DNA of 64,000 nucleotides from an uncultured Actinomycetota bacterium. GTDB lineage: Bacteria; Actinomycetota; Actinomycetes; Actinomycetales; Dermatophilaceae. Shown one piece after another: positions 20,077 to 63,091 of this stretch. The stretch's first letter is position 1. Each line of letters starts with the position of its first letter. Both the position numbers and the translations under genes were made by a program. The notes beneath the pieces are model-generated. The model saw only the letters and a program-made list of their open reading frames with translations, was not told the origin of the DNA and searched no databases. The stretch covers positions 302,050 to 366,049 of the forward strand of contig CAVXML010000006.1 in the NCBI GenBank assembly GCA_963763015.1, written 5' to 3'.

Positions 20077-21194
20077 TGGCGGAGCACGGCACGGGCGACC
20101 TCACGCTGGTTGCGCTGAGCAAGTCGTTCGGCGAGTTCACGGCGGTCCAGCCCATGGACCTGACCGTTCCGGAGGGATCGTTCTTCGCGCTGCTGGGCCC
20201 CTCGGGCTGCGGCAAGACGACGACGCTGCGGATGGTCGCCGGCCTCGAGCAGCCCACCGCGGGGCAGATCCTCATCGGGAGCAGCGACATCACGGACACC
20301 CGCCCGCACCAGCGCAACGTCAACACGGTGTTCCAGTCCTACGCGCTCTTCCCGCACATGAACGTCCTGGACAACGTCGCGTTCGGCCTCCGCCGGCGCG
20401 GTGACAAGGACGCCAAGCGCAAAGCGCAGGAGGCCCTGGAGCTCGTCGAGCTGGGTCACACCGGTCGCAAGAAGCCCAACCAGCTCTCCGGTGGCATGCA
20501 GCAGCGCGTCGCCCTGGCCCGTGCCCTCGTCAACCGACCGGACGTCCTGCTGCTCGACGAGCCGCTCGGCGCCCTCGACCTCAAGCTCCGCCGGCAGATG
20601 CAGATCGAGCTCAAGCGCATCCAGCACGAGGTCGGTCTCACCTTCATCCACGTCACGCACGACCAGGAGGAGGCCATGACCATGGCCGACTCGATCGCGG
20701 TCATGAACGCCGGCCGGATGGAGCAGCTGGGAGACCCGGCCTCGCTCTACGAGAACCCCGCGTCGACCTTCGTGGCCAACTTCCTCGGCCAGTCCAACCT
20801 CCTGCGCGCCCGGATCACCGGCGCCGCCGGCGGAGACCGGCTCACGGCGGACGTCCACGGGCACGAGGTGCTCGTGGACGTCCGCCGGGTGCCCGACGGA
20901 CTGCGCGACGTGTGGCTGGGCGTGCGCCCCGAGAAGCTCGCCATCGGTGACGGGAACGGCGCGAACCGCCTGACCGGCTCCGTGACGGACGCCTCGTTCA
21001 CGGGCGTGGCCACGCAGTATCTGGTCCGGATGCCGTGGGGCATGGACGTCATGGTCGTCCAGCAGAACGACGGCAGCGCGCGCGCCCGGCTGGGCGAGAA
21101 CGTCACCCTCTCCTGGGATCCGGGGCACGAGTTCGTCCTCGACTCCGCCCAGGACGAGGAGGCCGGCGTCGAGCACGTGGTCGTCGATGGCTGA
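20076..21194 (+). CDS. potA: Polyamine ABC transporter ATPase (PotA-like)
   Basis: [39 protein letters not shown]-like C-terminus; TGATG overlap with the upstream gene. Confidence 0.9.
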
Positions 21195-39186: not shown

Positions 39187-39941
39187 CCCAGCCCGTCGAG
39201 GCGGTCGTCTTCGACTGGGGCGGCACGCTGACGCCCTGGCACCAGGTCGACATGCCGGAGCAGTGGCGCGTGTTCGCCAGGGAGGTGCACGGCATCCCGG
39301 TGGACTCCCCGGACGTCACTGAGGCCGACCTCGACGAGGCACACCGGCTGGCCGACCGGATCCTCGCCGCCGAGGACGCCGCGTGGCGCCGTGGTCGCGA
39401 GGAGCACTCCTCGGCCGCGCTCACCGACATCCTCGAGGCGGCGGGCGTCGACGCGGCGCACGACCGGCACCACCTCGCGCTCGCCGCCTACCGCGGGTTC
39501 TGGGAGCCGCACACGCACACCGACCCCCAGGTGCGGCCCTTGTGGGAGGGGCTGCGCGAGCGCGGCATCCGGGTCGGCGTGCTCTCGAACACCATCTGGA
39601 GCCGCGAGTACCACCGAGGCATCTTCGAGCGCGACGGGGTCCTCCACCTCCTCGACGCCGACCTGTACTCCAGCGAGCTCGACCACGTGAAGCCGCACCC
39701 GGAGGCGTTCCGGGCGATCTGCCGTGAGCTCGGCGTCGAGCCCCGGCGAGCCGTGTACGTCGGGGACCGGGTGTTCGAGGACGTCCACGGCCCGCAGCAG
39801 ATCGGCATGCGCGCCATCTGGATCCCGCACTCCGACATCCCCCACGGGCAGCGGGTCGAGGTCACCGCCATGCCCGACGCGCACGCGCACGAGCTGCTCG
39901 ACATCCTTCACATCGTCGACGGCTGGTCGGCCGGCCGGTGA
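39183..39941 (+). CDS. HAD-family hydrolase
   Basis: FDWGGTL, VLSNT, KPHP, YVGD...DV; 4-nt overlap with proS. Confidence 0.88.
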
Positions 39942-40717
39942 CGGACCCGGGCCTCGAGGTCGTCGCACTGCTCGGCCTCGCCGGCTTCGTCGCGGGGTGG
40001 GTGGATGCCGTCGTGGGCGGCGGGGGACTGGTCCAGCTCCCCGCCCTGCTGCTGGGGCTTCCCGGCGCCACCCCGGCGCAGGTGCTCGCGACCAACAAGT
40101 TCGGCTCGGTCTGGGGTACCGGCACGGCGGCCGTCACCTACTGGCGCAGGGTGCGGCCGGACCTGCGGACGGCGCTGCCGATGGCGGCGGTCGCCTACGT
40201 GGGCGCCGTCGTCGGGGCCCTCATCGGGCTGCACATCCCGAAGGCCGCGTTCAACCCGGTCATCTTCGTCATGCTCGTCGTCGTCGGTGCCTACACCCTG
40301 CTCCGGCCCTCGCTGGGGGAGTCGACGCAGCTGCGCTGGTCGGGTCAGCGGCACACCGTCGCGGCCATGCTGACCGGGTTCGTCATCGGCGTGTACGACG
40401 GTGCGCTCGGGCCCGGAACGGGTTCCTTCTTCGTCTTCGCCCTGGTCGGCCTCATGGGCTACGCCTTCCTCGAGGCGAGCGCCAAGGCGAAGATCGCCAA
40501 CCTCGCGACGAACCTCGGCGCGTTGACGGTCTTCGCGCCCGGCGGCCACATCGTCTGGTCGGTGGGCATCACGATGGCCGCCGCGAACCTCCTGGGCGGG
40601 TACGTCGGCGCCCGGACCGCCGTCGTCCGAGGCAACCGCTTCATCCGGGTCGTCTTCGTCGTCGTCGTCGGTGGCTTCACCGTCCGGATCGGTGGCGACC
40701 TCCTCGGCTGGTGGTGA
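39938..40717 (+). CDS. TauE/SafE (TSUP) family membrane transporter
   Basis: DAVVGGGG, ATNKF, YDGALGPGTGSF, AKIANLATN. Confidence 0.88.
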   Translation: MTDPGLEVVALLGLAGFVAGWVDAVVGGGGLVQLPALLLGLPGATPAQVLATNKFGSVWGTGTAAVTYWRRVRPDLRTALPMAAVAYVGAVVGALIGLHIPKAAFNPVIFVMLVVVGAYTLLRPSLGESTQLRWSGQRHTVAAMLTGFVIGVYDGALGPGTGSFFVFALVGLMGYAFLEASAKAKIANLATNLGALTVFAPGGHIVWSVGITMAAANLLGGYVGARTAVVRGNRFIRVVFVVVVGGFTVRIGGDLLGWW

Positions 40718-40785
40718 GGCTGGTTGGGGGTGAGGCTGGCTTGGTCGTGGGGCGGTGTGGTGAGCGGGCCCGGATACCGGCCACC

Positions 40786-40842
40786 CGGCATCCGGTGCGT
40801 GTGAGTTTCCGGCGCCAGGGCACCGGAGATCACACGCACCCG
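40786..40842. repeat. 57-bp palindromic repeat, copy A (overlaps the nuclease stop codon)
   Basis: CGGCATCCGGTGCGTGTGAGTTTCCGGCGCCAGGGCACCGGAGATCACACGCACCCG; internal arms GGTGCGTGTGA / TCACACGCACC; 55/57 identical to copy B. Confidence 0.92.
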
Positions 40843-41762
40843 CGGTCGACCGAGACGCCGCGGCGAACCTGGGCCATCACATCGGCCTCCCGCAGCCGCA
40901 GGCCGACGAGGTCGATGCGGAGGACCCGCTCGTCGCCGAGGGTCAGCTCGTTCTGGCGCAGGTTGTCGTCGGTCAGGGCGAGGCCCGCGCGGTGTCCGGA
41001 CCCGTCGACCTCGACGACCAGGTGCGACCCGGCCCACCGGACGTCGAGGTAGACGCGGCCGGTGGGCGTCGTGCGCACGACCTGCCGCTCGGGCTCCGGG
41101 ATGCCGTGCCGGCGGCACAGCGCAGCGAAGTCGAGCTCGCCGAGTGAGTGGGCCCCGTCGGCGACGTCCAGCGCCACCTGGCGGACGAAGGCACGGCGGG
41201 TCCGGCCGTGGACGAGGCCGACCGCGTCGAGCAGCCGGGATCCGGTCGTGAGGCGCTGCTGCACGACGAGACAGAGCACCAGGGCGGCCTGCCGGTCGCT
41301 GGCTGCCCAGTGCGCGGCGCGGACCGCGGCCAGCTCGACACGCGTGCGTGGCACGCCGGCTCCGGTGCACTCGTCGTGAAGACGGCGGACCCGGTGAACC
41401 CGCACCCCCTCGGCACCAGGGCACCGGGCGTTGCGCGGCACCGATACGTGCACGAGCGGGTCGGTGTACCCGGTCAGGCCTGCGGCGTGCAGGGCTGACA
41501 CGCCGTCGAGCCGAGCCACCCGCTCGGCGACCTCCCAGACGGCGCGCCACCGAAGAGCCCGCTCGGAGAGGACCCCGGTGTGCAGGGCCACGGTGTGCCG
41601 GCCGTGGCGCCGCCAGCGCAGACCGGCGACCTCACGGGCGATCGCGCCATGGTCGTAGCCCAGCTTCCCGAGCCGTCGCATCGTGAGGACCCCGTCGAAC
41701 TCCTCAGCAGCACGGGTGGCGACAGCGCGCAGGTCCGCGCGGCGTGGTCGGTCGTGCGGCAT
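40830..41762 (-). CDS. AbiEi-type wHTH plus DUF559/Vsr-like PD-(D/E)XK nuclease protein
   Basis: N-terminal EFDGVLTMRRLGKLG; C-terminal SLGELDF...GIPEPERQ...YLDVRW...VVEVDGSGH. Confidence 0.72.
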   Translation of the reverse strand: MPHDRPRRADLRAVATRAAEEFDGVLTMRRLGKLGYDHGAIAREVAGLRWRRHGRHTVALHTGVLSERALRWRAVWEVAERVARLDGVSALHAAGLTGYTDPLVHVSVPRNARCPGAEGVRVHRVRRLHDECTGAGVPRTRVELAAVRAAHWAASDRQAALVLCLVVQQRLTTGSRLLDAVGLVHGRTRRAFVRQVALDVADGAHSLGELDFAALCRRHGIPEPERQVVRTTPTGRVYLDVRWAGSHLVVEVDGSGHRAGLALTDDNLRQNELTLGDERVLRIDLVGLRLREADVMAQVRRGVSVDRGCV

Positions 41763-41823
41763 CGGTCCAGCATCGCCACCCGACCAGGGCGGCCGCGGGG
41801 TTCTCCACAGGCCGGTGCCGACG

Positions 41824-41880
41824 CGGCATCCGATGCGTGTGAATTTCCGGCGCCAGGGCACCGGAGATCACACGCACCCG
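41824..41880. repeat. 57-bp palindromic repeat, copy B (upstream of the nuclease gene)
   Basis: CGGCATCCGATGCGTGTGAATTTCCGGCGCCAGGGCACCGGAGATCACACGCACCCG; same orientation as copy A. Confidence 0.92.
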
Positions 41881-41896
41881 GTCGGGACGCCCTCGC

Positions 41897-43816
41897 TCAG
41901 GGGCGGTCGCTCGTGAGCCAGAGCACCGCGTACGGCGGGAGCCACACGTTCCCGTCGTCGCCCCACGGCAGGGCGATTCCGGTGATCTCGTCGACGGCGT
42001 CGGCCACCCCGAGCTCGCGCACGCGCCCGCCCGGCCACGACCGCCACTGCGGGCTCACGTTGTAGACGCCCACGAACCGCCCCACGGGGTGCTCTCGCAC
42101 CGTCACCAGGACTCCGGGGTCGTCCACCGGCCCGATCCGGCTCTCGACCGACCCGTGCAGGTGGGGGAGGCGGGTCCGTGCACGCACGAGCTCGACGAGG
42201 TCGGTGAAGACCCGGCCGGGCACCGTCGCACGGTCGTTCCGTTGCTCGGCGCGCACCCAGTCAAGCCGCGGCCGGTGGGTCCAGCGGTTGTCGTCCTCGT
42301 GCCCGGGCTCGGACGCCCAGCCCGGGTCGTTGGGCTGGCCGAGCTCGTCACCGCTCCAGATGACGGGGATGCCGCCCCACCCGATCACGACCGCGTGGGC
42401 CAGCCGCAGCGCGGATGCCGCCCGCTCCACCTCGGCCGGACTGCTCGCCGACTCCAGCCCGACCAGCGATGCCGCGGTCCCGCTCGTGCGCCGGTCCTCG
42501 GTCTCGGGGTTGTGCTGGAACACCAGCCCGCGTGCCGGGGACCCTGGGAACCTCCCGGCGTACCAGTCGGCGAGGAAGCTCCGGTGCGCGTGACCGCCGA
42601 GGCCCACGGCGGCGGCATCCTCGTCCATGATCGCCCAGCCGATGTCGTCGTGGCAGCGCAGGTAGGTCAGCCAGGTCGCCGACGGGGGCTTCGGGGGCAG
42701 CGAGTTGAGGGCGTGCTCCGCGAGCCGCACGTCGCGCGAGGCGAGCATCGACCACACGTGGACCATGACGCTGTTGTGGTAGGCGAGGTCGCTGACCTTG
42801 CCCGAGTACGAGCCGCTGCCGAGGTAGTCGAGCAGCTTGGTGGGCGCCACGATGGCCTCGGCGAGGAAGGCCACCGCCGGGCACGCGATGCGGGTCACCG
42901 CCCGGAGCACCTGGGTGATGGCGTGCACCTCGGGCTGGCCCTGGCAGTCGGTGCCGAGCCGTTTCCACATGAAGGCGAGGGCGTCGAGGCGCAGCACGTC
43001 GACGCCCCGGTTGGCGAGGTCGAGGATGATCGACGCGTACTCCCTCAGCACCGCCGGGTTGGCCCAGTTGACGTCCCACTGGAACTCGTTGAACGTCGTC
43101 CACACCCAGCCCTGGAGCTCCTCCTCCCACGTGAAGTTCCCGGGGGCGAAGTCAGGGAAGACCTCGGGCAGCGTGCGCTCGAAGGCGTCGGGGCCGGTGC
43201 GGTCGGGGAACACGTGGAAGTACTCGCGGTAAGCCGGGTCGCCGGCTCGCGCGCGCTGGGCCCACTCGTGCTCGCGCGCGACGTGGTTGAGCACCAGGTC
43301 GAGGACGAGGCTCATCCCGGCGTCGTGGAGCCGTGCCGCGAGCGCTTCGAGGTCGTCCAGGGTGCCGAGGTCGGAACGCACCGCGCGGTAGTCGGCCACG
43401 GCGTAGCCACCGTCGTTGTCACCCTCGCGAGGGCGCAGCAGCGGCATGAGGTGGAGGTAGGTGACGCCGAGCTCGCGTAGGTACGGGAGGTGGCCGGCGA
43501 CCCCGCGCAGGGTCCCCGCGAACCGCTCCGTGTAGGCCGCATACCCCACCATCTCGGGGTCCTGGAGCCAGTCGGGGCGCAGCATCCGCTCCAGGTCGCG
43601 GACGTGGAGCCGGTCCGAGCGAGCGGCGTACGCGGCGCTGGCCAGGCCCACGAGGTCCGCGGCCAGCATCGGTGCCTGCTGGGCCCCGTACAGCGGGGTG
43701 AGCCCCGAGAGCAGGTCGGGCCACCAGCGCTCGACCCGCGCCCGGAGCATCACCTGCCGCTCCTCGCTCATGCCGGGTGGCACGGGGGCCGTGGGCGGGG
43801 GGACCGGGGCTCTCAC
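41897..43816 (-). CDS. GH13 amylosucrase-like glycoside hydrolase
   Basis: NDGGYAV, DLVLNH, LRLDALAF, AEAIV, RCHDDIG. Start GTG 43816 (GAGAAT box upstream) or ATG 43771. Confidence 0.88.
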   Translation of the reverse strand: MRAPVPPPTAPVPPGMSEERQVMLRARVERWWPDLLSGLTPLYGAQQAPMLAADLVGLASAAYAARSDRLHVRDLERMLRPDWLQDPEMVGYAAYTERFAGTLRGVAGHLPYLRELGVTYLHLMPLLRPREGDNDGGYAVADYRAVRSDLGTLDDLEALAARLHDAGMSLVLDLVLNHVAREHEWAQRARAGDPAYREYFHVFPDRTGPDAFERTLPEVFPDFAPGNFTWEEELQGWVWTTFNEFQWDVNWANPAVLREYASIILDLANRGVDVLRLDALAFMWKRLGTDCQGQPEVHAITQVLRAVTRIACPAVAFLAEAIVAPTKLLDYLGSGSYSGKVSDLAYHNSVMVHVWSMLASRDVRLAEHALNSLPPKPPSATWLTYLRCHDDIGWAIMDEDAAAVGLGGHAHRSFLADWYAGRFPGSPARGLVFQHNPETEDRRTSGTAASLVGLESASSPAEVERAASALRLAHAVVIGWGGIPVIWSGDELGQPNDPGWASEPGHEDDNRWTHRPRLDWVRAEQRNDRATVPGRVFTDLVELVRARTRLPHLHGSVESRIGPVDDPGVLVTVREHPVGRFVGVYNVSPQWRSWPGGRVRELGVADAVDEITGIALPWGDDGNVWLPPYAVLWLTSDRP

Positions 43817-43938
43817 GGGCGGCATTCTCGCCGATCTGCGGAAGCGTTTCCACCGCGGACGTCGGGAGGCCGCCGCCGGGGGCAGAGGCCGAGCGGGCAC
43901 GGGCACCTGCGACGCTGCGCCCCGGCCGCGCGCGAGGT

Positions 43939-48463: not shown

Positions 48464-49615
48464 ATGGACATCGACCTGGCGGCCCTGCGAGCACTCGAGC
48501 GGGAGCGCGGCATCTCGCTGGACGTGCTCATCCCCGCCATCGAGCAGGCCCTGCTCCTGGCGTACCAGCGCACTGAGGGCCATGACCGCCACGCCCGCGC
48601 CGAGCTCGACCGCAAGACCGGCCACGTCGTCGTGTGGGCACGCGAGGAGCTGGAGGCCCCCGTCGTGGACGAGGTGGACGAGGACGGCAACCCGGTTCGT
48701 GCGCGGCGTGAGCTCGGCCCGGAGTTCGACGACACCCCCACCGGCTTCGGTCGCGTCGCGGCGGCGACGGCCCGCCAGGTGATCGTCCAGCGGCTGCGCG
48801 ACATCGAGGACGAGGCGATCCTCGGGGACTTCAAGGGCCGCGAGGGTGACATCGTCGCCGGCATCATCCAGCAGAGCCCCGACCCCCGGCACGTCACGGT
48901 CGACTTCGGCAGCGTCGAGGGGATCCTGCCGCTGGCCGAGCAGGTTCCCGGGGAGTCCTACGTGCACGGCCAGCGCCTGCGCTGCTTCGTGGTCTCGGTG
49001 AAGCGCGGGCCCCGCGGTCCCCAGATCGGGCTGTCTCGCACCCATCCCAACCTCGTGCGCAAGCTGTTCGCCCTCGAGGTCCCCGAGATCGCCGACGGCA
49101 GCGTCGAGATCGCCGCCCTGGCGCGTGAGGCCGGCCACCGCACGAAGATCGCGGTGCACTCGGCCGTTCCCGGCCTGAACGCCAAGGGCGCCTGCATCGG
49201 CCCGATGGGTGCCCGGGTGCGCGCCGTCATGAGCGAGCTGCACGGCGAGAAGATCGACATCGTCGACTGGTCCGAGGACCCGGCGACCTTCGTCGCCGCC
49301 GCCCTCTCGCCCGCTCGGGTGTCCTCCGTCGAGATCGTGGACCGCCAGCTGCGCTCCGCCCGGGTCGTCGTGCCCGACTACCAGCTCTCGCTCGCCATCG
49401 GCCGCGAGGGCCAGAACGCCCGGCTGGCGGCCAAGCTCACCGGGTGGCGGATCGACATCCGACCCGACACCGTCGGGCCGGCGCCGGCAGGGCGGCATCC
49501 GACAGGGCGGGATTCGGCAGGGCGGGATTCGGCAGGGCGAGGTCCGGCAGGGCGGGGTCCGGCAGGGCGGGATCCGGCGGGGCCGCACACGGGTGACGCG
49601 CCCGACCCCGGGTAG
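48464..49615 (+). CDS. nusA: Transcription factor NusA with a C-terminal pentapeptide repeat tail
   Basis: [14 protein letters not shown]1 domain, [47 protein letters not shown]. Confidence 0.97.
49484..49588 (+). repeat. 15-bp in-frame tandem repeat (6 full units plus 1 degenerate)
   Basis: Consensus CCGGCAGGGCGGGAT at 49484, 49499, 49514, 49529, 49544, 49559, 49574, encoding [35 protein letters not shown]. Confidence 0.92.
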
Positions 49616-50053: not shown

Positions 50054-52867
50054 GTGTCTAAAGTCCGTGTGAGCGCACTTGCCAAGGAGCTCGGAGTGAC
50101 CAGCAAGGTCCTCCTCGAGCGCCTCAACGGCATGGGCGAGTACGTCAAGAGCGCCAGCTCGACGATCGAGCCCCCTGTGGTGCGGCGCTACCGGGAGAAG
50201 TTCCCGGACGACGCGCCCAAGGCCGCCGCCCCCGCAGCGGCGAAGAAGGCCGCTCCGGCGGCCCCTGCCCCGGCAGCCCCCTCTGCCCCAGCCGCGCGCG
50301 ACGCCGCGCCGGCGGCGCCGTCGTCGTCGGCTCCGGCGGCCGCGGCGCCCGCCCAGGCGCCCTCGCGGCCCGCCGAGGTAGCCCCCGCGGCATCCGCACC
50401 GTCGGCCCCGGCGGCCGCCGCGCCGGCGCCCGCAGCGCCCGCACCCGCAGCGCCCGCGCCCGCTCCAGCAGCACCGGCGCCGTCCGCACCGGTGGCACCG
50501 GCCGCCCGTGACGCGGGTGGCCAGGGTGCGCCCCGCCCGGCCCCCCGGCCGGCCAGCGCCCCGCGCCCCGGCAACAACCCGTTCGCCCCGAGCCAGGGGA
50601 TGGGCCGCACCCGCGAGCCCTCGCCCCGTCCGGGCAACAACCCGTTCGCCCCGAGCCAGGGGATGCCGCGGCCGCAGAGCCGTCCGGGCGCCCGTCCCGG
50701 TGCGGCCGGTGCCGGTGCGGCCGGTCCGCGCCCCAGCGGCTCCCGTCCGAGCCCCGGCATGATGCCCGACCGCAGCGCGGTCGCCCGTCCCGGTGAGCGT
50801 CCCGCCCGCGGCGGCGCGCGCCCCGGTGGTCCCGGTGCCGGTCGTCCCGGTGCCGGCGGCGGCGCCGGTGGCTTCGGTGGTCGCCCCGGCGGACCCGGCG
50901 GCTTCCGCGGTGGTCCCGGTGGCCGTGGCGGCACCCAGGGTGCCTTCGGCCGCGGTGGCGGTCGTCCCGGCCGCGCCCGCAAGTCCAAGCGCGCCAAGCG
51001 CCTCGAGTTCGAGGAGATGCAGGCACCGTCGATCGGTGGCGTCAGCGTCCCCCGCGGTGACGGCACCACCGTCATCCAGATCCGCCAGGGCGCGAGCCTG
51101 TCCGACTTCGCCGACAAGATCGACGCGAACCCGGGCGCCCTCGTCACCGTGCTGTTCCACCTCGGTGAGATGGCCACGGCGACGCAGAGCCTCGACGAGG
51201 ACACCTTCCGGCTCCTCGGTGGCGAGCTCGGCTACGACATCCGCATGGTCTCGCCCGAGGAGGAGGAGCGCGAGCTCTTCGACTCGTTCAACATCGACCT
51301 CGAGATCGGGGTCGACACCGAGGACGAGGACGACCTCGAGGCCCGTCCGCCGGTCGTGACCGTCATGGGTCACGTCGACCACGGAAAGACGCGCCTGCTC
51401 GACGCGATCCGCAGCGCCGAGGTCGCCGCCGGCGAGGCCGGTGGCATCACCCAGCACATCGGTGCCTACCAGATCCACAAGGAGCACGAGGGCGTCGACC
51501 GTCCCATCACCTTCATCGACACCCCTGGTCACGAGGCGTTCACCGCCATGCGTGCCCGTGGTGCCAAGGTGACCGACATCGCCATCCTCGTGGTGGCCGC
51601 GGACGACGGCGTCATGCCGCAGACCATCGAGGCGCTCAACCACGCCCAGGCGGCCGACGTCCCGATCGTCGTCGCGGTCAACAAGATCGACGTCGAGGGT
51701 GCCAACCCCGCGAAGATCCGCCAGCAGCTCACCGAGTACAACCTCGTCGCCGAGGAGTACGGCGGCGAGACGATGTTCGTCGACGTCTCCGCGAAGCAGG
51801 GGCAGAACATCGACCAGCTGCTCGAGGCCGTGCTCCTCACGGCCGACGCGGCGCTCGACCTGCGGGCCAACCCCGAGCGCGACGCCCGCGGCATCGCGAT
51901 CGAGGCCAACCTCGACAAGGGTCGCGGCGCCACGGCGACCGTGCTCATCCAGTCGGGCACGCTGCGCGTCGGTGACGCCATCGTGGCGGGCTCCTCGCAC
52001 GGCCGCGTCCGGGCGATGCTCGACGAGCACGGCAACCAGGTCCCGGAGGCACTCCCGTCGCGTCCGGTCCAGGTGCTCGGCCTCTCCACGGTCCCGCGGG
52101 CCGGCGACACGTTCGTCGTCGCCCCCGACGACCGCACGGCGCGCCAGATCGCCGAGAAGCGCGAGGCGGCCGACCGTCAGGCGAGCCTGGCCAAGGCCCG
52201 CAAGCGCATCTCGCTCGAGGACCTCAACGAGGCCCTTGCGGCGGGCAAGGTCGACACCCTCAACCTCATCCTCAAGGGTGACGTGTCGGGTTCGGTCGAG
52301 GCGCTCGAGGACGCCCTGCTCCAGATCGACGTGGGCGAGGAGGTCGACCTGCGCATCATCGACCGCGGCGTCGGCGCGATCACGCTGAACAACATCAACC
52401 TCGCGATGGCGTCCAACGCCATCATCATCGGCTTCAACGTGCGGGCCGAGGGCCAGAACGCCGAGGTGGCCGAGCGTGAGGGCGTCGAGATCCGCTACTA
52501 CTCGGTCATCTACCAGGCGATCGAGGAGATCGAGCAGGCGCTCAAGGGCATGCTCAAGCCGGAGTTCGAGGAGGTCGAGCTCGGCACGGCAGAGATCCGC
52601 GAGATCTTCCGGAGCAGCAAGTTCGGCAACATCGCCGGCTCGATCGTGCGCAGTGGCGAGATCAAGCGCGGCACCCGGGCGCGCATCACCCGGAACGGTG
52701 TCGTCGTCGCCGAGAACGTCGAGATCGCCGGGCTGCGCCGGTTCAAGGACGACGTCACCGAGGTCCGCGAGGGCTTCGAGTGCGGCATCAACCTCGGGTC
52801 GTTCAACGACCTCCAGCTCGAGGACCTCATCAGCACGTACGAGATGCGCGAGAAGCCCCGGGCCTGA
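50054..52867 (+). CDS. infB: Translation initiation factor IF-2
   Basis: [14 protein letters not shown], Pro/Ala/Gly-rich linker, [23 protein letters not shown]; SD AGGAG. Confidence 0.98.
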
Positions 52868-52888: not shown

Positions 52889-52968
52889 CTCCCCGACTTC
52901 GTCTGTCGGAGTGCCGGCGACACGCCGCTCCAGCGGCGGTTCGCAGCACGTTGACAGACGAAGTCGGG
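52889..52968. repeat. REP/MITE-like palindromic element, copy 1
   Basis: 16-bp perfect TIR CCCGACTTCGTCTGTC (52892-52907) / GACAGACGAAGTCGGG (52953-52968); homologous to 58795-58877. Confidence 0.85.
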
Positions 52969-56909: not shown

Positions 56910-58781
56910 ATGCTCACCGCTTCTCCCCAGATCCAATCCCCGGCCGACGAACCTGTCGACCAGTCCGTCCTTGACAACGAGGCCCAGAGCGTCGGCCACC
57001 TGTTCCGGGACCGGGTGGCCGCCACGCCGGACCGGCCGGCCTACATGCACGCCGTCGTCTCCGAGTCCGGCGACGAGTGGGTGACCGTGACGTGGTCCGA
57101 GCTCGACGAGGTGGTCCGCGAGATCGGTGCCGGGCTCATCGCCCTCGGGGTCGAACCTGAGGACCGGGTGGCGATCGCGTCGAGCACGAGGTACGAGTGG
57201 GCCCTCGCGGACCTCGCCACGATGGTGGCCGGCGGCGCGACGACGACGATCTACCCGACGACCATGGCCGACGACGTGGCGTTCATCCTCTCCGACTCCG
57301 GGGCCAAGGTCGTCTTCGCGGAGAACGCCGAGCAGCTCGAGAAGCTCCGCTCGATCCACGGGAACACGCCGTCGGTGACCCGCGTGGTCGTGTTCGACGG
57401 CGCGGCCGACACCGACTCCTGGACGCTCACGCTCGAGGAGGTGCGCCAGCTCGGCCGGGAGTACCTCGCCGGTGACCCGGGGGCGATCGACGCGAGGATC
57501 GACGGCATCCGGCACGACCAGCTCGCGACGATCATCTACACCTCGGGGACGACCGGACGCCCCAAGGGTGTCCGCCTGCGGCACAGCGCGTGGACCTACG
57601 AGGGCGCCGCGGTGGCCTCCACCAACATCCTCTCGGAGGACGACCTGCAGTACCTCTGGCTCCCGCTCGCCCACGTCTTCGGCAAGGTGCTCCTGACCCT
57701 TCCGCTGCAGATCGGCTTCCCCACCGCAATCGACGGGCGGATCGACAAGATCGTCGACAACCTCGCCGTCGTCAAGCCCACCTTCATGGGTGCCGCGCCA
57801 CGCATCTTCGAGAAGGCCTACGGGCGCATCTCGACGATGATGCAGAGCGAGGGCGGCCCCAAGCACAAGCTCTTCGTCTGGGCGAGCGGCGTGGGTCGCG
57901 AGGTGAGCGAGCTTCGCGAGCAGGGGAAGAACCCCACCGGGCTGTTGGGAATCAAGTACGCCATCGCCGACAAGGTGATCGGCACCAAGATCCGCGAGCG
58001 TTTCGGGGGACGGATCCGGTTCTTCATCTCCGGCTCGGCCGCACTCAACCAGGACGTCGCGCGGTGGTTCGACGCCATGGGGATGCAGATCCTCGAGGGC
58101 TACGGCATGACCGAGACGGCCGCGGCCTCGTTCGTCAACCGGCCACAGGGGTACCGCTACGGCAGCGTGGGCTGGCCGCTCCCGGCGACCGAGGTGCGGA
58201 TCGCCGAGGACGGCGAGGTGCTCCTGCGCGGCCCCGGCAACATGGAGGGGTACCACAACAACCCCGAGGCCACCGCCGAGACGATCGACTCCGAGGGGTG
58301 GCTGCACACCGGCGACATCGGCGAGCTCGACGACCGGGGTTTCCTGCGTATCACCGACCGCAAGAAGGACCTGTTCAAGACCAGTGGTGGCAAGTACGTG
58401 GCCCCCTCGATCATCGAGTCGACCTTCAAGGGCCTGTGCCCCTACGCGAGCCAGCTCGTCGTGCACGGCGCAGACCGCAACTTCGTGTCGGCCCTGGTCA
58501 CCCTCGACCCCGACGCCGTCCAGGGCTGGGCGGCCCAGAACGGCATGGAGGGGGCGTCGTACGAGGAGATCGTCTCCTCGCCCGCCTGCCGTGAGATGGT
58601 CGAGGGCTACGTCGACCAGCTCAACCAGAACCTCAACCGCTGGGAGACGATCAAGAAGTTCACGATCCTCGACACCGACCTCACGGTGGAAGAGGGTGAG
58701 CTCACGCCCAGCCTGAAGCTGAAGCGCAAGGTGGTCGCGGAGAAGTACAAGGACCACCTCGACGCGCACTACACCGCCTGA
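56910..58781 (+). CDS. fadD: Long-chain fatty acyl-CoA synthetase (AMP-binding)
   Basis: IYTSGTTGRPKG, EGYGMTE, HTGDIG, ITDRKKDL. Confidence 0.9.
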   Translation: MLTASPQIQSPADEPVDQSVLDNEAQSVGHLFRDRVAATPDRPAYMHAVVSESGDEWVTVTWSELDEVVREIGAGLIALGVEPEDRVAIASSTRYEWALADLATMVAGGATTTIYPTTMADDVAFILSDSGAKVVFAENAEQLEKLRSIHGNTPSVTRVVVFDGAADTDSWTLTLEEVRQLGREYLAGDPGAIDARIDGIRHDQLATIIYTSGTTGRPKGVRLRHSAWTYEGAAVASTNILSEDDLQYLWLPLAHVFGKVLLTLPLQIGFPTAIDGRIDKIVDNLAVVKPTFMGAAPRIFEKAYGRISTMMQSEGGPKHKLFVWASGVGREVSELREQGKNPTGLLGIKYAIADKVIGTKIRERFGGRIRFFISGSAALNQDVARWFDAMGMQILEGYGMTETAAASFVNRPQGYRYGSVGWPLPATEVRIAEDGEVLLRGPGNMEGYHNNPEATAETIDSEGWLHTGDIGELDDRGFLRITDRKKDLFKTSGGKYVAPSIIESTFKGLCPYASQLVVHGADRNFVSALVTLDPDAVQGWAAQNGMEGASYEEIVSSPACREMVEGYVDQLNQNLNRWETIKKFTILDTDLTVEEGELTPSLKLKRKVVAEKYKDHLDAHYTA

Positions 58782-58794
58782 CCCTCGCGTCCGA

Positions 58795-58877
58795 CTCCCC
58801 GACTTCGTCTGTCGGGGTGCCACGACACGCCGCAGCGGCGGCGTGTCGGCACCCATCTGACAGACGAAGTCGGGGAG
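58795..58877. repeat. REP/MITE-like palindromic element, copy 2, between convergent genes
   Basis: 19-bp perfect TIR CTCCCCGACTTCGTCTGTC / GACAGACGAAGTCGGGGAG; internal hairpin GTGCC...GACACGCCGC...GCGGCGTGTC...GGCAC. Confidence 0.85.
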
Positions 58878-62966: not shown

Positions 62967-63014
62967 CTCGGCCGCTCACCGCACCCCCCGGCCACCCGAC
63001 CCCGCTCCGGCCCG

Positions 63015-63091
63015 TCGACGCAACCTCTGCTAGCAGAGGTTGCGTCGAGGACCACAGGGTGCACCCTGTGGTCGTGTACCCAACCTCTGCT
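63015..63091. repeat. Adjacent perfect palindromes (34 bp and 24 bp) forming a third palindromic repeat type
   Basis: TCGACGCAACCTCTGCTAGCAGAGGTTGCGTCGA (63015-63048) and GACCACAGGGTGCACCCTGTGGTC (63050-63073); CAACCTCTGCT recurs at 63081-63091. Confidence 0.85.

What the first reader, a model, noticed from the sequence alone, without database searches (positions are those of the whole stretch)
40786..41880. DUF559/AbiEi-type nuclease gene bracketed by 57-bp palindromic direct repeats: possible REPtron-like mobile cassette
Seen: two same-orientation repeats (55/57 identical), each an imperfect hairpin. One overlaps the stop codon; the other lies about 60 bp upstream of the start. Both begin with the enriched octamer CGGCATCC immediately 5' of the hairpin. 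No transposase is present. Known: REP-associated HUH tyrosine transposases (RAYTs) sit among their REP hairpins, but this protein has a Vsr/DUF559 PD-(D/E)XK signature and a wHTH, not an HUH motif. Inference: this may be an analogous nuclease-plus-hairpin element that spreads its repeats, possibly targeting the octamer.
Basis: partly seen in the sequence, partly recalled or inferred. Interest (0 to 1): 0.7.

Follow-up and report, generated by a model that had tools for sequence, protein, structure and literature searches.

The report
Hairpin repeats with their own nuclease
A chromosomal gene for a DNA-binding nuclease sits between two copies of a 47-base palindromic hairpin that is also scattered behind unrelated genes. 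The same gene-plus-cognate-hairpin layout recurs in about 90 related loci across Actinobacteria. It therefore looks like a second, unrelated kind of the "repeat family with its own enzyme" partnership so far known only for REP sequences and their RAYT transposases.

Summary
Two 60-nt direct repeats (57/60 identical), each a 47-nt imperfect hairpin, bracket a 310-aa gene on the minus strand (40830-41762). They are the only copies in the 64-kb window.

The protein has an AbiEi-type winged-helix fold fused to a DUF559/Vsr-like nuclease domain.

The cassette is not recently mobile. In 38 species the gene lies at the same site between TauE and amylosucrase, in either orientation. One metagenome contig has the site empty.

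The bracket is general. In 65 of 78 testable related loci, spread over at least 24 chromosomal sites, the gene is flanked by its own hairpin type. This also holds in Isoptericola, Cellulosimicrobium and Pseudofrankia. The hairpin's outer stem changes in step with the fast-evolving protein.

The same hairpins also occur as solo copies, about 10 or more per genome, just after stop codons of unrelated genes. Their stems covary and each genome has its own flavour.

Best reading: a REP-like palindromic repeat family with a cognate, vertically inherited, non-HUH nuclease, analogous to REPIN-RAYT. Binding, cleavage and repeat spreading are inferred, not shown.

The octamer CGGCATCC is a genome-wide over-represented word, not part of the element.

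The parts
41821..41880 (.). Upstream copy (relative to the gene) of the 60-nt repeat. The stem-loop core is 41832-41878. It lies directly downstream of the amylosucrase stop codon (41897-41899).
   Evidence: The covariance model of the hairpin family scores it 42.3 bits.
40783..40842 (.). Downstream copy of the 60-nt repeat. The stem-loop core is 40794-40840. Its right arm contains the gene's TGA stop (40830-40832). It faces the convergent TauE gene.
   Evidence: The covariance model scores it 45.4 bits.
40830..41762 (-). Gene for a 310-aa protein: an AbiEi-like winged-helix region fused to a DUF559/Vsr-like nuclease region.
   Evidence: Translation. More than 1,800 homologues, 60-77% identical in Intrasporangiaceae/Dermatophilaceae. 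Model with pLDDT 87.
41199..41711 (-). Residues 18-188: AbiEi-type fold (N-terminal wHTH DNA-binding domain plus AbiEi C-terminal domain).
   Evidence: PADLOC AbiEi model, E = 1e-6, residues 18-188. Foldseek hits to AbiEi 6y8q (E = 3e-6) and Rv2827c 1zel (E = 7e-5). AbiEi_4 matches in 5 of 33 relatives.
40869..41165 (-). Residues about 200-298: DUF559/Vsr-like PD-(D/E)XK nuclease domain. The motifs SLGELDF, YLDxRW, VVE(I/V)DGxxH and DxxRxN...VLR are present.
   Evidence: These residues are invariant in 33 relatives. Pfam DUF559 matches in 12 of 33 relatives, best E = 9e-5; the window protein is sub-threshold. tblastn match to annotated DUF559/Vsr genes of Meiothermus phages, E = 3e-4.
41800..41810 (-). 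Conserved box CTGTGGAGAAC, 48 nt upstream of the ATG. The family consensus is CTGTGGA(T/C)GAC, or its reverse complement GTC(G/A)TCCACAGG, at -48 to -61.
   Evidence: Present at a fixed distance in nearly all related loci, in one orientation or the other, including distant relatives. It is unique in the window as an exact match.
41769..41774 (-). -10-like hexamer GATGCT at -12 to -7 from the ATG. This suggests a leaderless mRNA that starts at the start codon.
   Evidence: A hexamer of the form (C/G)A(T/G)NCT stands at the same distance in the aligned upstream regions of the family. The promoter role is an inference. The sigma-70 consensus scan found nothing.
40786..40793 (+). Octamer CGGCATCC inside the duplicated segment (second copy at 41824-41831). 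It is a genome-wide over-represented word and not specific to the element.
39938..40717 (+). Context: TauE/SafE-family membrane protein gene, convergent with the nuclease gene.
   Evidence: Pfam TauE, E = 1e-46. Conserved neighbour in 38 loci.
41897..43906 (-). Context: amylosucrase-type GH13 gene, upstream of and co-directional with the nuclease gene.
   Evidence: Pfam Alpha-amylase plus Amylosucrase_C-like. Conserved neighbour in 38 loci.

Best explanation
The two repeats are copies of a lineage-specific, REP-like palindromic hairpin family. The gene between them encodes that family's cognate enzyme: a chromosomal, vertically inherited protein with an AbiEi-type winged-helix DNA-binding region fused to a Vsr/DUF559-type nuclease.

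Shown:
1. Members of this protein family throughout Actinobacteria are bracketed by one to three copies of their own hairpin on each side.
2. The same hairpins occur as about ten or more solo copies per genome, just downstream of unrelated genes.
3. The hairpin's outer stem differs between protein clades and changes along with the fast-evolving protein, even at one fixed chromosomal site. The inner stem varies by compensatory changes.
4. The copies within one genome resemble each other more than copies from other genomes.

Inferred mechanism:
- The wHTH reads the conserved outer stem of the palindrome. The two proteins closest to the model by fold comparison, AbiEi and Rv2827c, bind inverted repeats in their own promoters.
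- This binding autoregulates the leaderless gene.
- The nuclease domain nicks or cleaves at the hairpin or cruciform.
- Repair, by gene conversion or templated copying, then homogenises the copies and occasionally seeds new ones behind other genes.

This would be a non-HUH counterpart of the REPIN-RAYT partnership. Recombination between the flanking palindromes, which are at once direct and inverted repeats, would explain three further observations: the orientation flips, the tandem multiplication of hairpins at the flanks, and the occasional loss of the gene.
For: Flanking is specific:
- In 65 of 78 loci the upstream and downstream flanks share a hairpin with score >= 20. None of 226 control comparisons reaches that.
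- In 540 kb of gene-centred loci, 141 hairpin matches flank the gene and only 3 lie elsewhere.
- In the 64-kb window the only two copies flank the gene.

Generality:
- At least 24 distinct chromosomal sites are occupied.
- An independent GenBank record shows the same layout.
- So do relatives in Isoptericola, Cellulosimicrobium and Pseudofrankia.
- The family holds 1,825 clusters at 50% identity with E <= 1e-10.

Dispersed solos:
About 100 of them are solo hairpins in unrelated contexts.
- Solos are intergenic and lie close to 3' ends of genes: 26 convergent, 33 tandem, 8 divergent, 2 intragenic.
- About 10 copies per genome occur in isolate-like runs, and the gene's own downstream copy is the closest relative of its upstream copy.

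Co-variation:
- Hairpin type follows protein clade.
- At site 1 the neighbouring genes are 75-89% identical while the nuclease is only 50-69% identical with the same tree shape. Its hairpin changes with it, for example TCGAGGTAAA against TCGATGTGAA.
- The wHTH region is the most variable folded part of the protein.

Structure is maintained: 89% of cells are paired, 15 of 22 pairs show changes on both sides, and the covariation score is 0.24 against 0.096 in shuffles (0 of 500 shuffles reach it).

Genome-specific flavour: similarity of the inner part is 0.623 within assemblies and 0.548 between them (0 of 500 permutations reach it).

Protein: AbiEi/Rv2827c fold. DUF559 hallmark residues are invariant. 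AbiEi and Rv2827c bind inverted repeats in their own promoters (PMC7319586).

Vertical, chromosomal inheritance.

Orientation flips at two sites and one empty site.
Against: - No biochemical or genetic evidence exists that the protein binds or cuts the hairpin, or that it spreads it.
- Copy numbers are modest (about ten to a few tens per genome), far below classical REP/REPIN families.
- No whole genome could be censused. The key correlation, cognate solos present only where the cognate gene is present, is therefore untested.
- In assembly OEIU01 nine homogeneous solos coexist with an empty TauE/amylosucrase site. It is unknown whether a cognate gene sits elsewhere in that assembly.
- 13 of 78 loci show no clear shared flank hairpin.
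- High similarity of two repeats 1 kb apart can arise from ordinary RecA-mediated gene conversion without any dedicated enzyme.
- Compensatory stem changes can come from template switching rather than from selection.
- The covariation alignment was selected with a pattern that fixes the outer stem.
Confidence: 0.5

Rival explanations
1. Autoregulated DNA-binding nuclease with palindromic operators and no role in spreading repeats. The AbiEi-like wHTH binds the palindromes on both sides of its gene and represses it, for example by looping. The solo palindromes are extra binding sites (a small regulon, roadblocks or terminators) or relics. The nuclease domain serves repair or defence.
For: The two proteins closest to the model by fold comparison, AbiEi and Rv2827c, are autoregulators that bind inverted repeats in their promoters (PMC7319586). 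The upstream palindrome sits at -60 to -150, next to a conserved box and a leaderless -10-like hexamer. The gene is chromosomal, single per site and vertically inherited. Solos sit at 3' ends of genes, like terminators.
Against: An operator model does not need a second, matching palindrome after the stop codon, nor tandem arrays of them on both sides. It does not need compensatory changes in the non-conserved inner stem. It does not explain why solo copies in one genome share a private flavour, nor why the nuclease residues are invariant.
Confidence: 0.27
2. Selfish homing-type cassette. The gene together with its hairpins is the mobile unit. Its nuclease cuts unoccupied cognate hairpins (terminator palindromes), and the cassette is copied in, duplicating the target hairpin.
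For: A complete hairpin stands on each side, as expected from duplication of a palindromic target. One empty site holds a single degenerate hairpin. A 98-nt metagenome contig may join TauE directly to amylosucrase. The family occupies at least 24 sites, with several paralogues per genome. Both orientations occur at one site.
Against: The gene holds the same site in 38 species, and its tree is congruent with its neighbours. Paralogues within a genome are only about 50-60% identical, so there is no sign of recent copying. About 100 of 120 cognate hairpins are unoccupied solos, although they would be targets. No copies were found on plasmids or in bona fide phages.
Confidence: 0.13
3. Coincidence. 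The hairpins are the lineage's ordinary bidirectional terminators, and any gene lying between convergent or tandem neighbours would be flanked by them.
For: The upstream copy lies right after the amylosucrase stop. The downstream copy lies between the convergent ends of the gene and TauE. Solos lie after stop codons.
Against: Only two copies occur in 64 kb with roughly 60 genes, and both flank this gene. The count is 141 flank copies against 3 non-flank copies in 540 kb. Hairpin types are paralogue-specific within one genome. There is no U-tract.
Confidence: 0.03

Closest known systems
REP/REPIN sequences with their RAYT (REP-associated tyrosine transposase), the 'REPtron' arrangement
   Same: - Short GC-rich palindromic repeats are dispersed in intergenic regions near 3' ends of genes.
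- The enzyme gene is bracketed by its cognate repeats.
- There is one gene per site, it is vertically inherited, and it is not on plasmids or phages.
- Different paralogues pair with different repeat families.
- Repeats have genome-specific flavours.
(RAYT properties are taken from PMC5581495 and PMC3479197, as listed.)
   Different: - The enzyme is unrelated: an AbiEi-type wHTH plus a Vsr/DUF559 PD-(D/E)XK nuclease rather than an HUH/Y1 transposase.
- The hairpin is longer (46-47 nt with a stem of about 20 bp).
- Copy numbers are tens per genome, not hundreds.
- The hosts are Actinobacteria.
- The gene carries a conserved upstream GTCCACAGG box.
- No activity has been shown.
AbiEi antitoxins of type IV AbiE toxin-antitoxin systems (S. 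agalactiae AbiEi, PDB 6y8q; M. tuberculosis Rv2827c, PDB 1zel)
   Same: These are the best structural matches to residues of about 18-190 and beyond. AbiEi and Rv2827c bind inverted repeats in their own promoters and autoregulate (PMC7319586). Here a palindrome sits upstream of the gene.
   Different: There is no AbiEii/DUF1814 toxin partner gene in the window or in any related locus. The C-terminus carries a nuclease domain. The palindromes are on both flanks and are also dispersed in the genome.
Vsr (very-short-patch repair endonuclease) and DUF559 proteins
   Same: The C-terminal roughly 100 residues carry the DUF559 hallmark residues. The loop apex of many hairpins holds CCAG/CTGG or CCWGG, the core of the Vsr/Dcm site; in the window it is CCAGG (own knowledge of the Vsr site).
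   Different: Vsr is a small stand-alone enzyme next to a cytosine methyltransferase gene and acts on T:G mismatches. Here the domain is fused to a wHTH, no methyltransferase is adjacent, and the gene is tied to palindromic repeats.
IS200/IS605-family elements (hairpin-ended, TnpA HUH transposase)
   Same: The layout is hairpin - gene - hairpin, with similar imperfect hairpins at both ends in the same orientation.
   Different: There is no HUH transposase and there are no multiple near-identical gene copies. The gene is fixed at orthologous sites, and the hairpins also exist alone.

Membership tests
REPIN-RAYT / REPtron | The enzyme is an HUH (Y1) tyrosine transposase of the IS200/IS605 TnpA type. 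| tested here: not met
   Pfam, NCBIfam and PADLOC scans give only DUF559 and AbiEi. The fold search gives AbiEi and Rv2827c.
REPIN-RAYT / REPtron | The enzyme gene is flanked by its cognate palindromic repeats. | tested here: met
   Window. 65 of 78 related loci against 0 of 226 controls. Distant relatives.
REPIN-RAYT / REPtron | The same repeats are dispersed as many extragenic copies in the genome. | tested here: met
   About 100 solo copies among 120 metagenome loci. About 10 copies per genome in isolate-like runs. Solos are intergenic. For the window's own genome this could not be tested: 0 solos in 64 kb and 0 hits in representative genomes.
REPIN-RAYT / REPtron | The gene is single-copy, vertically inherited and not on mobile elements. 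| tested here: met
   Same site in 38 species. Tree congruent with neighbours. No plasmid hits and no bona fide phage hits.
REPIN-RAYT / REPtron | A conserved GTAG or CGTC head at the 5' end of the REP (Di Nocera et al., PMC3733652, title and abstract only). | tested here: not met
   The conserved head here is (C)GAACGTG(G/T)GTGA, or clade-specific variants such as TTCGAGGTA and TCGATGTGA.
DUF559 / Vsr-like PD-(D/E)XK nuclease | Match to Pfam PF04480 above its gathering score. | tested here: inconclusive
   Window protein: 13.8 bits against a 20.6-bit cut-off, E = 0.055. 12 of 33 close relatives match at E <= 0.1, best 9e-5. tblastn match to annotated DUF559/Vsr genes, E = 3e-4.
DUF559 / Vsr-like PD-(D/E)XK nuclease | Conserved acidic and histidine active-site residues (hhE.DG..H, preceded by a conserved D). 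| tested here: met
   D240, E251, D253 and H257 are invariant in 33 relatives and present in the window protein. Catalytic activity was not tested.
AbiE type IV toxin-antitoxin (AbiEi antitoxin) | AbiEi fold: N-terminal wHTH plus C-terminal domain. | tested here: met
   Foldseek to 6y8q, E = 3e-6, and to 1zel, E = 7e-5. PADLOC AbiEi, E = 1e-6 over residues 18-188.
AbiE type IV toxin-antitoxin (AbiEi antitoxin) | Bicistronic with an AbiEii (DUF1814 nucleotidyltransferase) toxin gene. | tested here: not met
   The neighbours are TauE and amylosucrase. No DUF1814 gene appears in any context examined.
AbiE type IV toxin-antitoxin (AbiEi antitoxin) | Binds inverted repeats in its own promoter. | not testable with these tools
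   A palindrome is present upstream. Binding needs EMSA or ChIP.
Homing endonuclease gene / mobile cassette | Presence/absence polymorphism at a defined target, with recent spread (near-identical copies). | tested here: not met
   The site is occupied in 38 of the 85 gene-centred loci; those loci were fetched by similarity to the protein, so they could not have shown an empty site. The one empty site came from the hairpin-pattern scan of metagenome contigs, which also returned about 17 occupied loci. Paralogues are 50-60% identical. One weak 98-nt metagenome contig hints at an empty allele.
Intrinsic (rho-independent) terminator | GC-rich hairpin followed by a U-tract. | tested here: not met
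   No terminator-like site in 40600-42000. No T run follows either copy. Actinobacterial terminators often lack U-tracts (own knowledge), so a termination function is not excluded.

The most novel reading that the evidence does not exclude
Actinobacteria harbour a large, previously undescribed class of 'repeat plus keeper' systems. Each system pairs a fast-evolving AbiEi-wHTH/Vsr-type nuclease (1,825 protein clusters at E <= 1e-10) with a private family of roughly 46-nt palindromic hairpins. The nuclease recognises, nicks and thereby copies and homogenises its hairpins. This would be a second, mechanistically independent invention of the REPIN-RAYT type of within-genome replicator, using a PD-(D/E)XK nickase and repair-driven copying instead of HUH single-strand transposition.
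Probability: 0.4. Interest if true: 0.85.

Novelty: new variant of a known kind. Interest (0 to 1): 0.78.

Why it matters
How short palindromic repeats arise, spread and stay uniform in bacterial genomes is understood for only one enzyme class: RAYTs, mostly in Proteobacteria.

A second, unrelated enzyme tied to its own repeat family would show that the 'repeat with a domesticated keeper' arrangement evolved more than once.

It would assign a concrete role to a very large group of actinobacterial 'DUF559 / AbiEi domain' hypothetical proteins.

It would also offer a natural set of matched protein-DNA specificity pairs, because the wHTH and the outer stem co-vary. These pairs would be useful for studying how recognition evolves and possibly as programmable site-specific nickases.

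In practice these hairpins also break assemblies, mark 3' ends of genes, and can invert or delete the segment between them.

Tried and rejected
1. Exact-pattern scan of 185,579 representative genomes for the window's own hairpin: 0 hits. The source genome is not in that collection, so the window genome could not be censused.
2. Laying soil and rhizosphere metagenome contigs on the window locus. The contigs were too fragmented for a census and gave only one weak 98-nt joint that skips the cassette.
4. Rfam at gathering and at E-value thresholds: no family, only chance miRNA-precursor hits far below threshold.
5. Sequence search of A3 against PDB chains: nothing meaningful. The fold search was needed.
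6. Sigma-70 promoter and U-tract terminator scans: nothing.
7. Octamer as target site: rejected.
8. Codon-usage explanation for the octamer: rejected, since it occurs in all frames and in both orientations.
9. TIR-type MITE reading, in which a solo would be two fused ends of a gene-bearing element: rejected, because whole hairpins rather than half hairpins flank the gene.
10. Integron-cassette or attC reading: no integrase in any context.
11. CRP-like TGTGA...TCACA site and LexA GAAC...GTTC box: the spacing is wrong (own knowledge).
12. My first palindrome finder and the whole-window MFE scan were too strict and too noisy respectively. They were replaced by alignment-based measures.
13. Literature searches for DUF559, AbiEi or REP in Actinobacteria found no description of this arrangement. 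The library covers open-access papers only.
Full report
**1. The observation**

The window holds one long high-identity repeat: 40783-40842 and 41821-41880, 57 of 60 bases identical and in the same orientation. A search with the 47-nt core and up to three mismatches finds only these two copies, against none expected.

Each copy folds into a single imperfect hairpin on either strand, at -32 to -39 kcal/mol and z = -3.4 to -4.9.

Between the copies, on the minus strand, lies a 310-codon ORF, 40830-41762. Its TGA stop lies inside the right arm of the downstream hairpin. The upstream hairpin ends 59 nt before the ATG.

The neighbours are a TauE/SafE gene (39938-40717, +) and an amylosucrase-type GH13 gene (41897-43906, -).

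**2. The protein**

Pfam and NCBIfam give nothing significant for the window protein itself. The only hit is DUF559 at E = 0.055, below the cut-off.
- Among 33 relatives, 12 match DUF559 (best E = 9e-5) and 5 match AbiEi_4.
- A PADLOC AbiEi model matches residues 18-188 at E = 1e-6.
- An AlphaFold model (pLDDT 87) finds AbiEi of S. agalactiae (6y8q, E = 3e-6) and Rv2827c of M. tuberculosis (1zel, E = 7e-5, 250-275 aligned columns) as the only significant PDB matches.
- Residues 200-298 match annotated DUF559/Vsr genes of Meiothermus phages.
- The DUF559 hallmark residues (YLD, VVEIDGxxH and others) are invariant in the family.
- No AbiEii toxin gene is adjacent in any locus.

**3. Not a recently mobile cassette**

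Homologues are 60-77% identical and come from Intrasporangiaceae/Dermatophilaceae: Ornithinibacter, Phycicoccus, Oryzobacter, Nostocoides, Pedococcus.

In 38 of 85 related loci the gene lies at the same place, between the convergent TauE and amylosucrase genes. It sits there in either orientation. It is co-directional with amylosucrase in the window and 27 other loci, and co-directional with TauE in 10 loci, among them Phycicoccus flavus, P. jejuensis and Oryzobacter telluris.

The remaining loci fall into at least 23 other sites, and several genomes carry two or more paralogues.

At a second site (genes A and B) the nuclease tree mirrors that of its neighbours, but the nuclease diverges faster: 50-69% identity where the neighbours are 75-89% identical. 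The orientation flips at that site too.

No relative was found on 72,556 plasmids. In phage records the only full-length hit is an unverified 7.6-kb contig.

So the gene is chromosomal, vertically inherited and fast-evolving.

**4. The hairpin bracket is a family trait**

I compared 370 nt upstream with 390 nt downstream of each gene. In 65 of 78 loci with enough flank, the two flanks share a segment with local score >= 20. None of 226 control comparisons, using flanks shifted by 730 nt, reaches 20; their 99th percentile is 15.9.

The shared segment is always a hairpin of about 45-55 nt. It lies 50-150 nt before the start and 0-60 nt after the stop, or overlapping it. It is often present in two or three tandem copies per side.

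The sequence differs between clades, for example:
- CGAACGTGGGTGAA...TTCACCCACGTTCG
- CGAACGTGTGTGAAC...
- GGTTCGAGGTATT...
- GTCGATGTGATCGATCG...
- GGTGCTCGCGGGAACG...
- GGGGGTAAAGACGG...

The hairpin type follows the protein tree. The window's GTGCGTGTGA...TCACACGCAC aligns column for column with the main type.

At one fixed site, species whose neighbouring genes are 88% identical carry different outer stems: TCGAGGTAAA in L077 and TCGATGTGAA in L079. Each change is mirrored in both arms and in both flanking copies.

The layout recurs elsewhere:
- in GenBank record MT837139.1;
- in distant relatives from Isoptericola, Cellulosimicrobium and Pseudofrankia, and in a Logan contig.

The family comprises 1,825 clusters at 50% identity with E <= 1e-10.

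**5. The hairpins are also dispersed**

I scanned metagenome contigs for AACGTGKGTGA-N(20-40)-TCACMCACGTT.
- About 17 are the amylosucrase/gene/TauE locus.
- About 8 are low-GC chance hits.
- About 100 are solo hairpins in unrelated contexts, with no family gene nearby.
- 96 of 125 hairpins are exactly 46 nt long.

Solos are intergenic and usually lie 5-60 nt after a stop codon: 26 between convergent genes, 33 tandem, 8 divergent, 2 apparently intragenic.

On two isolate-like runs that hold a P. jejuensis-like locus, the hairpin matches 10-11 different contigs at >= 80% identity. The summed depth is 170-209 against 17-20 for single-copy DNA. The gene's own downstream copy is the closest to its upstream copy, with 2 mismatches against 4-10 for the others.

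Large metagenome contigs carry about one exact-pattern copy per 100-200 kb.

In contrast, in 540 kb of gene-centred loci 141 pattern matches flank the gene and 3 lie elsewhere.

A covariance model built from 72 hairpins finds only the two flanking copies in the window: 45 and 42 bits, with the next hit at 16.6 bits.

**6. Structure and concerted evolution**

On 72 hairpins, 89% of cells form standard pairs, against 31-46% when the partners are slid. 15 of 22 pairs show changes on both sides. The covariation score is 0.24 against 0.096 in shuffles, and 0 of 500 shuffles reach it.

The outer 11-14 bp are nearly invariant within a type. The inner stem and the loop vary.

The inner parts are more alike within an assembly than between assemblies: 0.623 against 0.548, with 0 of 500 permutations reaching the observed value. 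Two examples:
- Nine solos of assembly OEIU01 share GAAGAACGTCGGCATGCCGACGTTCTTC.
- The Ga03165xx samples share a 47-nt CCGGACC flavour in both solo and gene-flanking copies.

**7. Empty site**

Contig OEIU01000122.1 (L095) has TauE, then a single degenerate hairpin 5 nt after the TAG, then the amylosucrase stop, and no gene. Its right half matches that genome's solo flavour. A 17-nt direct repeat of the amylosucrase 3' end lies in and after the hairpin.

One 98-nt rhizosphere contig may join 40713 to 41913, skipping the cassette. This is weak evidence.

**8. Upstream signals**

Nearly every locus carries a conserved box between the upstream hairpin and the ATG. It reads CTGTGGA(T/C)GAC at -48, or its reverse complement GTC(G/A)TCCACAGG at -52 to -61. 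A -10-like hexamer stands at -12 to -7, which suggests a leaderless mRNA.

In the window these are 41800-41810 and 41769-41774. The factor that reads the box is unknown.

**9. The octamer**

CGGCATCC/GGATGCCG is the most over-represented 8-mer in the window: 67 copies against 5.6 (dinucleotide shuffles) or 9 (order-3 Markov model).
- It occurs in all frames and on both strands.
- It stands at 0.65-0.89 per kb in related contigs.
- It is only 1.8-fold denser within 40 nt of hairpins.

It is a separate, lineage-wide signal and not a target of this element.

**10. Interpretation**

Shown:
- a specific, ancient, co-varying association between a wHTH-nuclease and a palindromic hairpin family;
- that the same hairpin family also exists as dispersed solo copies.

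Inferred:
- The wHTH reads the outer stem. AbiEi and Rv2827c, the proteins closest to the model by fold comparison, bind inverted repeats in their own promoters (PMC7319586).
- The nuclease acts at the hairpin.
- Repair-driven copying homogenises and spreads the repeats.

The closest known analogue is the REPIN-RAYT partnership (PMC5581495, PMC3479197). This is not a member of that family, because the enzyme class differs.

Rivals, each considered in its own section of this report:
- a pure autoregulator-plus-operators reading;
- a homing-cassette reading;
- coincidence with ordinary terminators.

Limits: no whole genome could be censused, no activity data exist, and the literature search covers open-access papers only.

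Noticed in passing
whole window, e.g. 40-47, 160-167, 40786-40793, 41824-41831; also L003:4945-4976: The octamer CGGCATCC/GGATGCCG is the most over-represented 8-mer of the window: 67 copies, against 5.6 expected from dinucleotide shuffles and 9 from an order-3 Markov model. It occurs in all reading frames, on both strands and in intergenic DNA, at about 1 per kb. It has the same density (0.65-0.89 per kb) in related genomes and metagenome contigs, and it stands as a tandem triple next to the O. aureus hairpin. That density is like that of uptake or Chi-type signals. Its function is unknown.
   Followed up: partly
window 52892-52967 and 58800-58877: A second palindromic repeat family: CCCGACTTCGTCTGTCGG...CTGACAGACGAAGTCGGG. 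Both copies lie directly after stop codons, one after the ORF ending at 52867 and one after the ORF ending at 58781. They are 5.9 kb apart, with several genes between them and no family nuclease. They may be solo copies belonging to another paralogue elsewhere in this genome.
   Followed up: partly
window 41800-41810 (-); L001-L085 and L206-L210 at -48 to -61 from the start codon: The box CTGTGGA(T/C)GAC / GTC(G/A)TCCACAGG is conserved upstream of nearly every family gene at a fixed distance, but in opposite orientations in different clades. An orientation-independent box at a fixed distance is unusual for a promoter element. Its reader is unknown.
   Followed up: partly
loop apex of hairpins, window 40815-40819 and 41853-41857 (CCAGG); L086-L205: The apex of the GTGGGTGA-type hairpins holds CCAG/CTGG in 34 of 91 unique hairpins (10.4 expected) and CCWGG in 15 (3.6 expected). 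CCWGG is the core of the site on which the Vsr enzyme acts. The GTGTGTGA subtype lacks it (1 of 23).
   Followed up: partly
L095:640-720 (OEIU01000122.1): The empty TauE/amylosucrase site has a degenerate hairpin. The left inner stem is replaced by a 17-nt copy (GTGAGCCAGAGGGCGGC) of the amylosucrase 3' end, and the same 17 nt follow the hairpin. This could be a deletion or template-switch scar.
   Followed up: partly
window 40713 / 41913 (rhizosphere metagenome run X1): One 98-nt contig (depth 5, at least 90% alike) joins the end of TauE to the end of amylosucrase, skipping 1,199 bases: the gene and both hairpins. It may be an empty allele in a related population, but it is too short to trust.
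   Followed up: no
window 49460-49592: A tandem array of about 8 copies of a 15-nt unit (GGCAGGGCGGGATTC-like). The first copies contain the octamer CGGCATCC.
   Followed up: no
window 20844-20888 and 63011-63076: Very strong, near-perfect hairpins that do not belong to the family: a 20-bp perfect stem at 20844-20888, and two adjacent perfect hairpins at 63013-63076. They are probably terminators.
   Followed up: no
L206 (GenBank MT837139.1, 'UNVERIFIED: Bacteriophage sp.'): This 7.6-kb 'phage' record from human faecal samples carries a family gene (54% identical to the window protein) with flanking hairpins. It looks like an actinobacterial chromosomal fragment rather than a phage.
   Followed up: no
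start codons of the family genes, e.g. L003:3998-4008: In 16 of 86 loci the start codon is embedded in the octamer GGATGCCG (Met-Pro). In the window the corresponding sequence is CGATGCCG.
   Followed up: no
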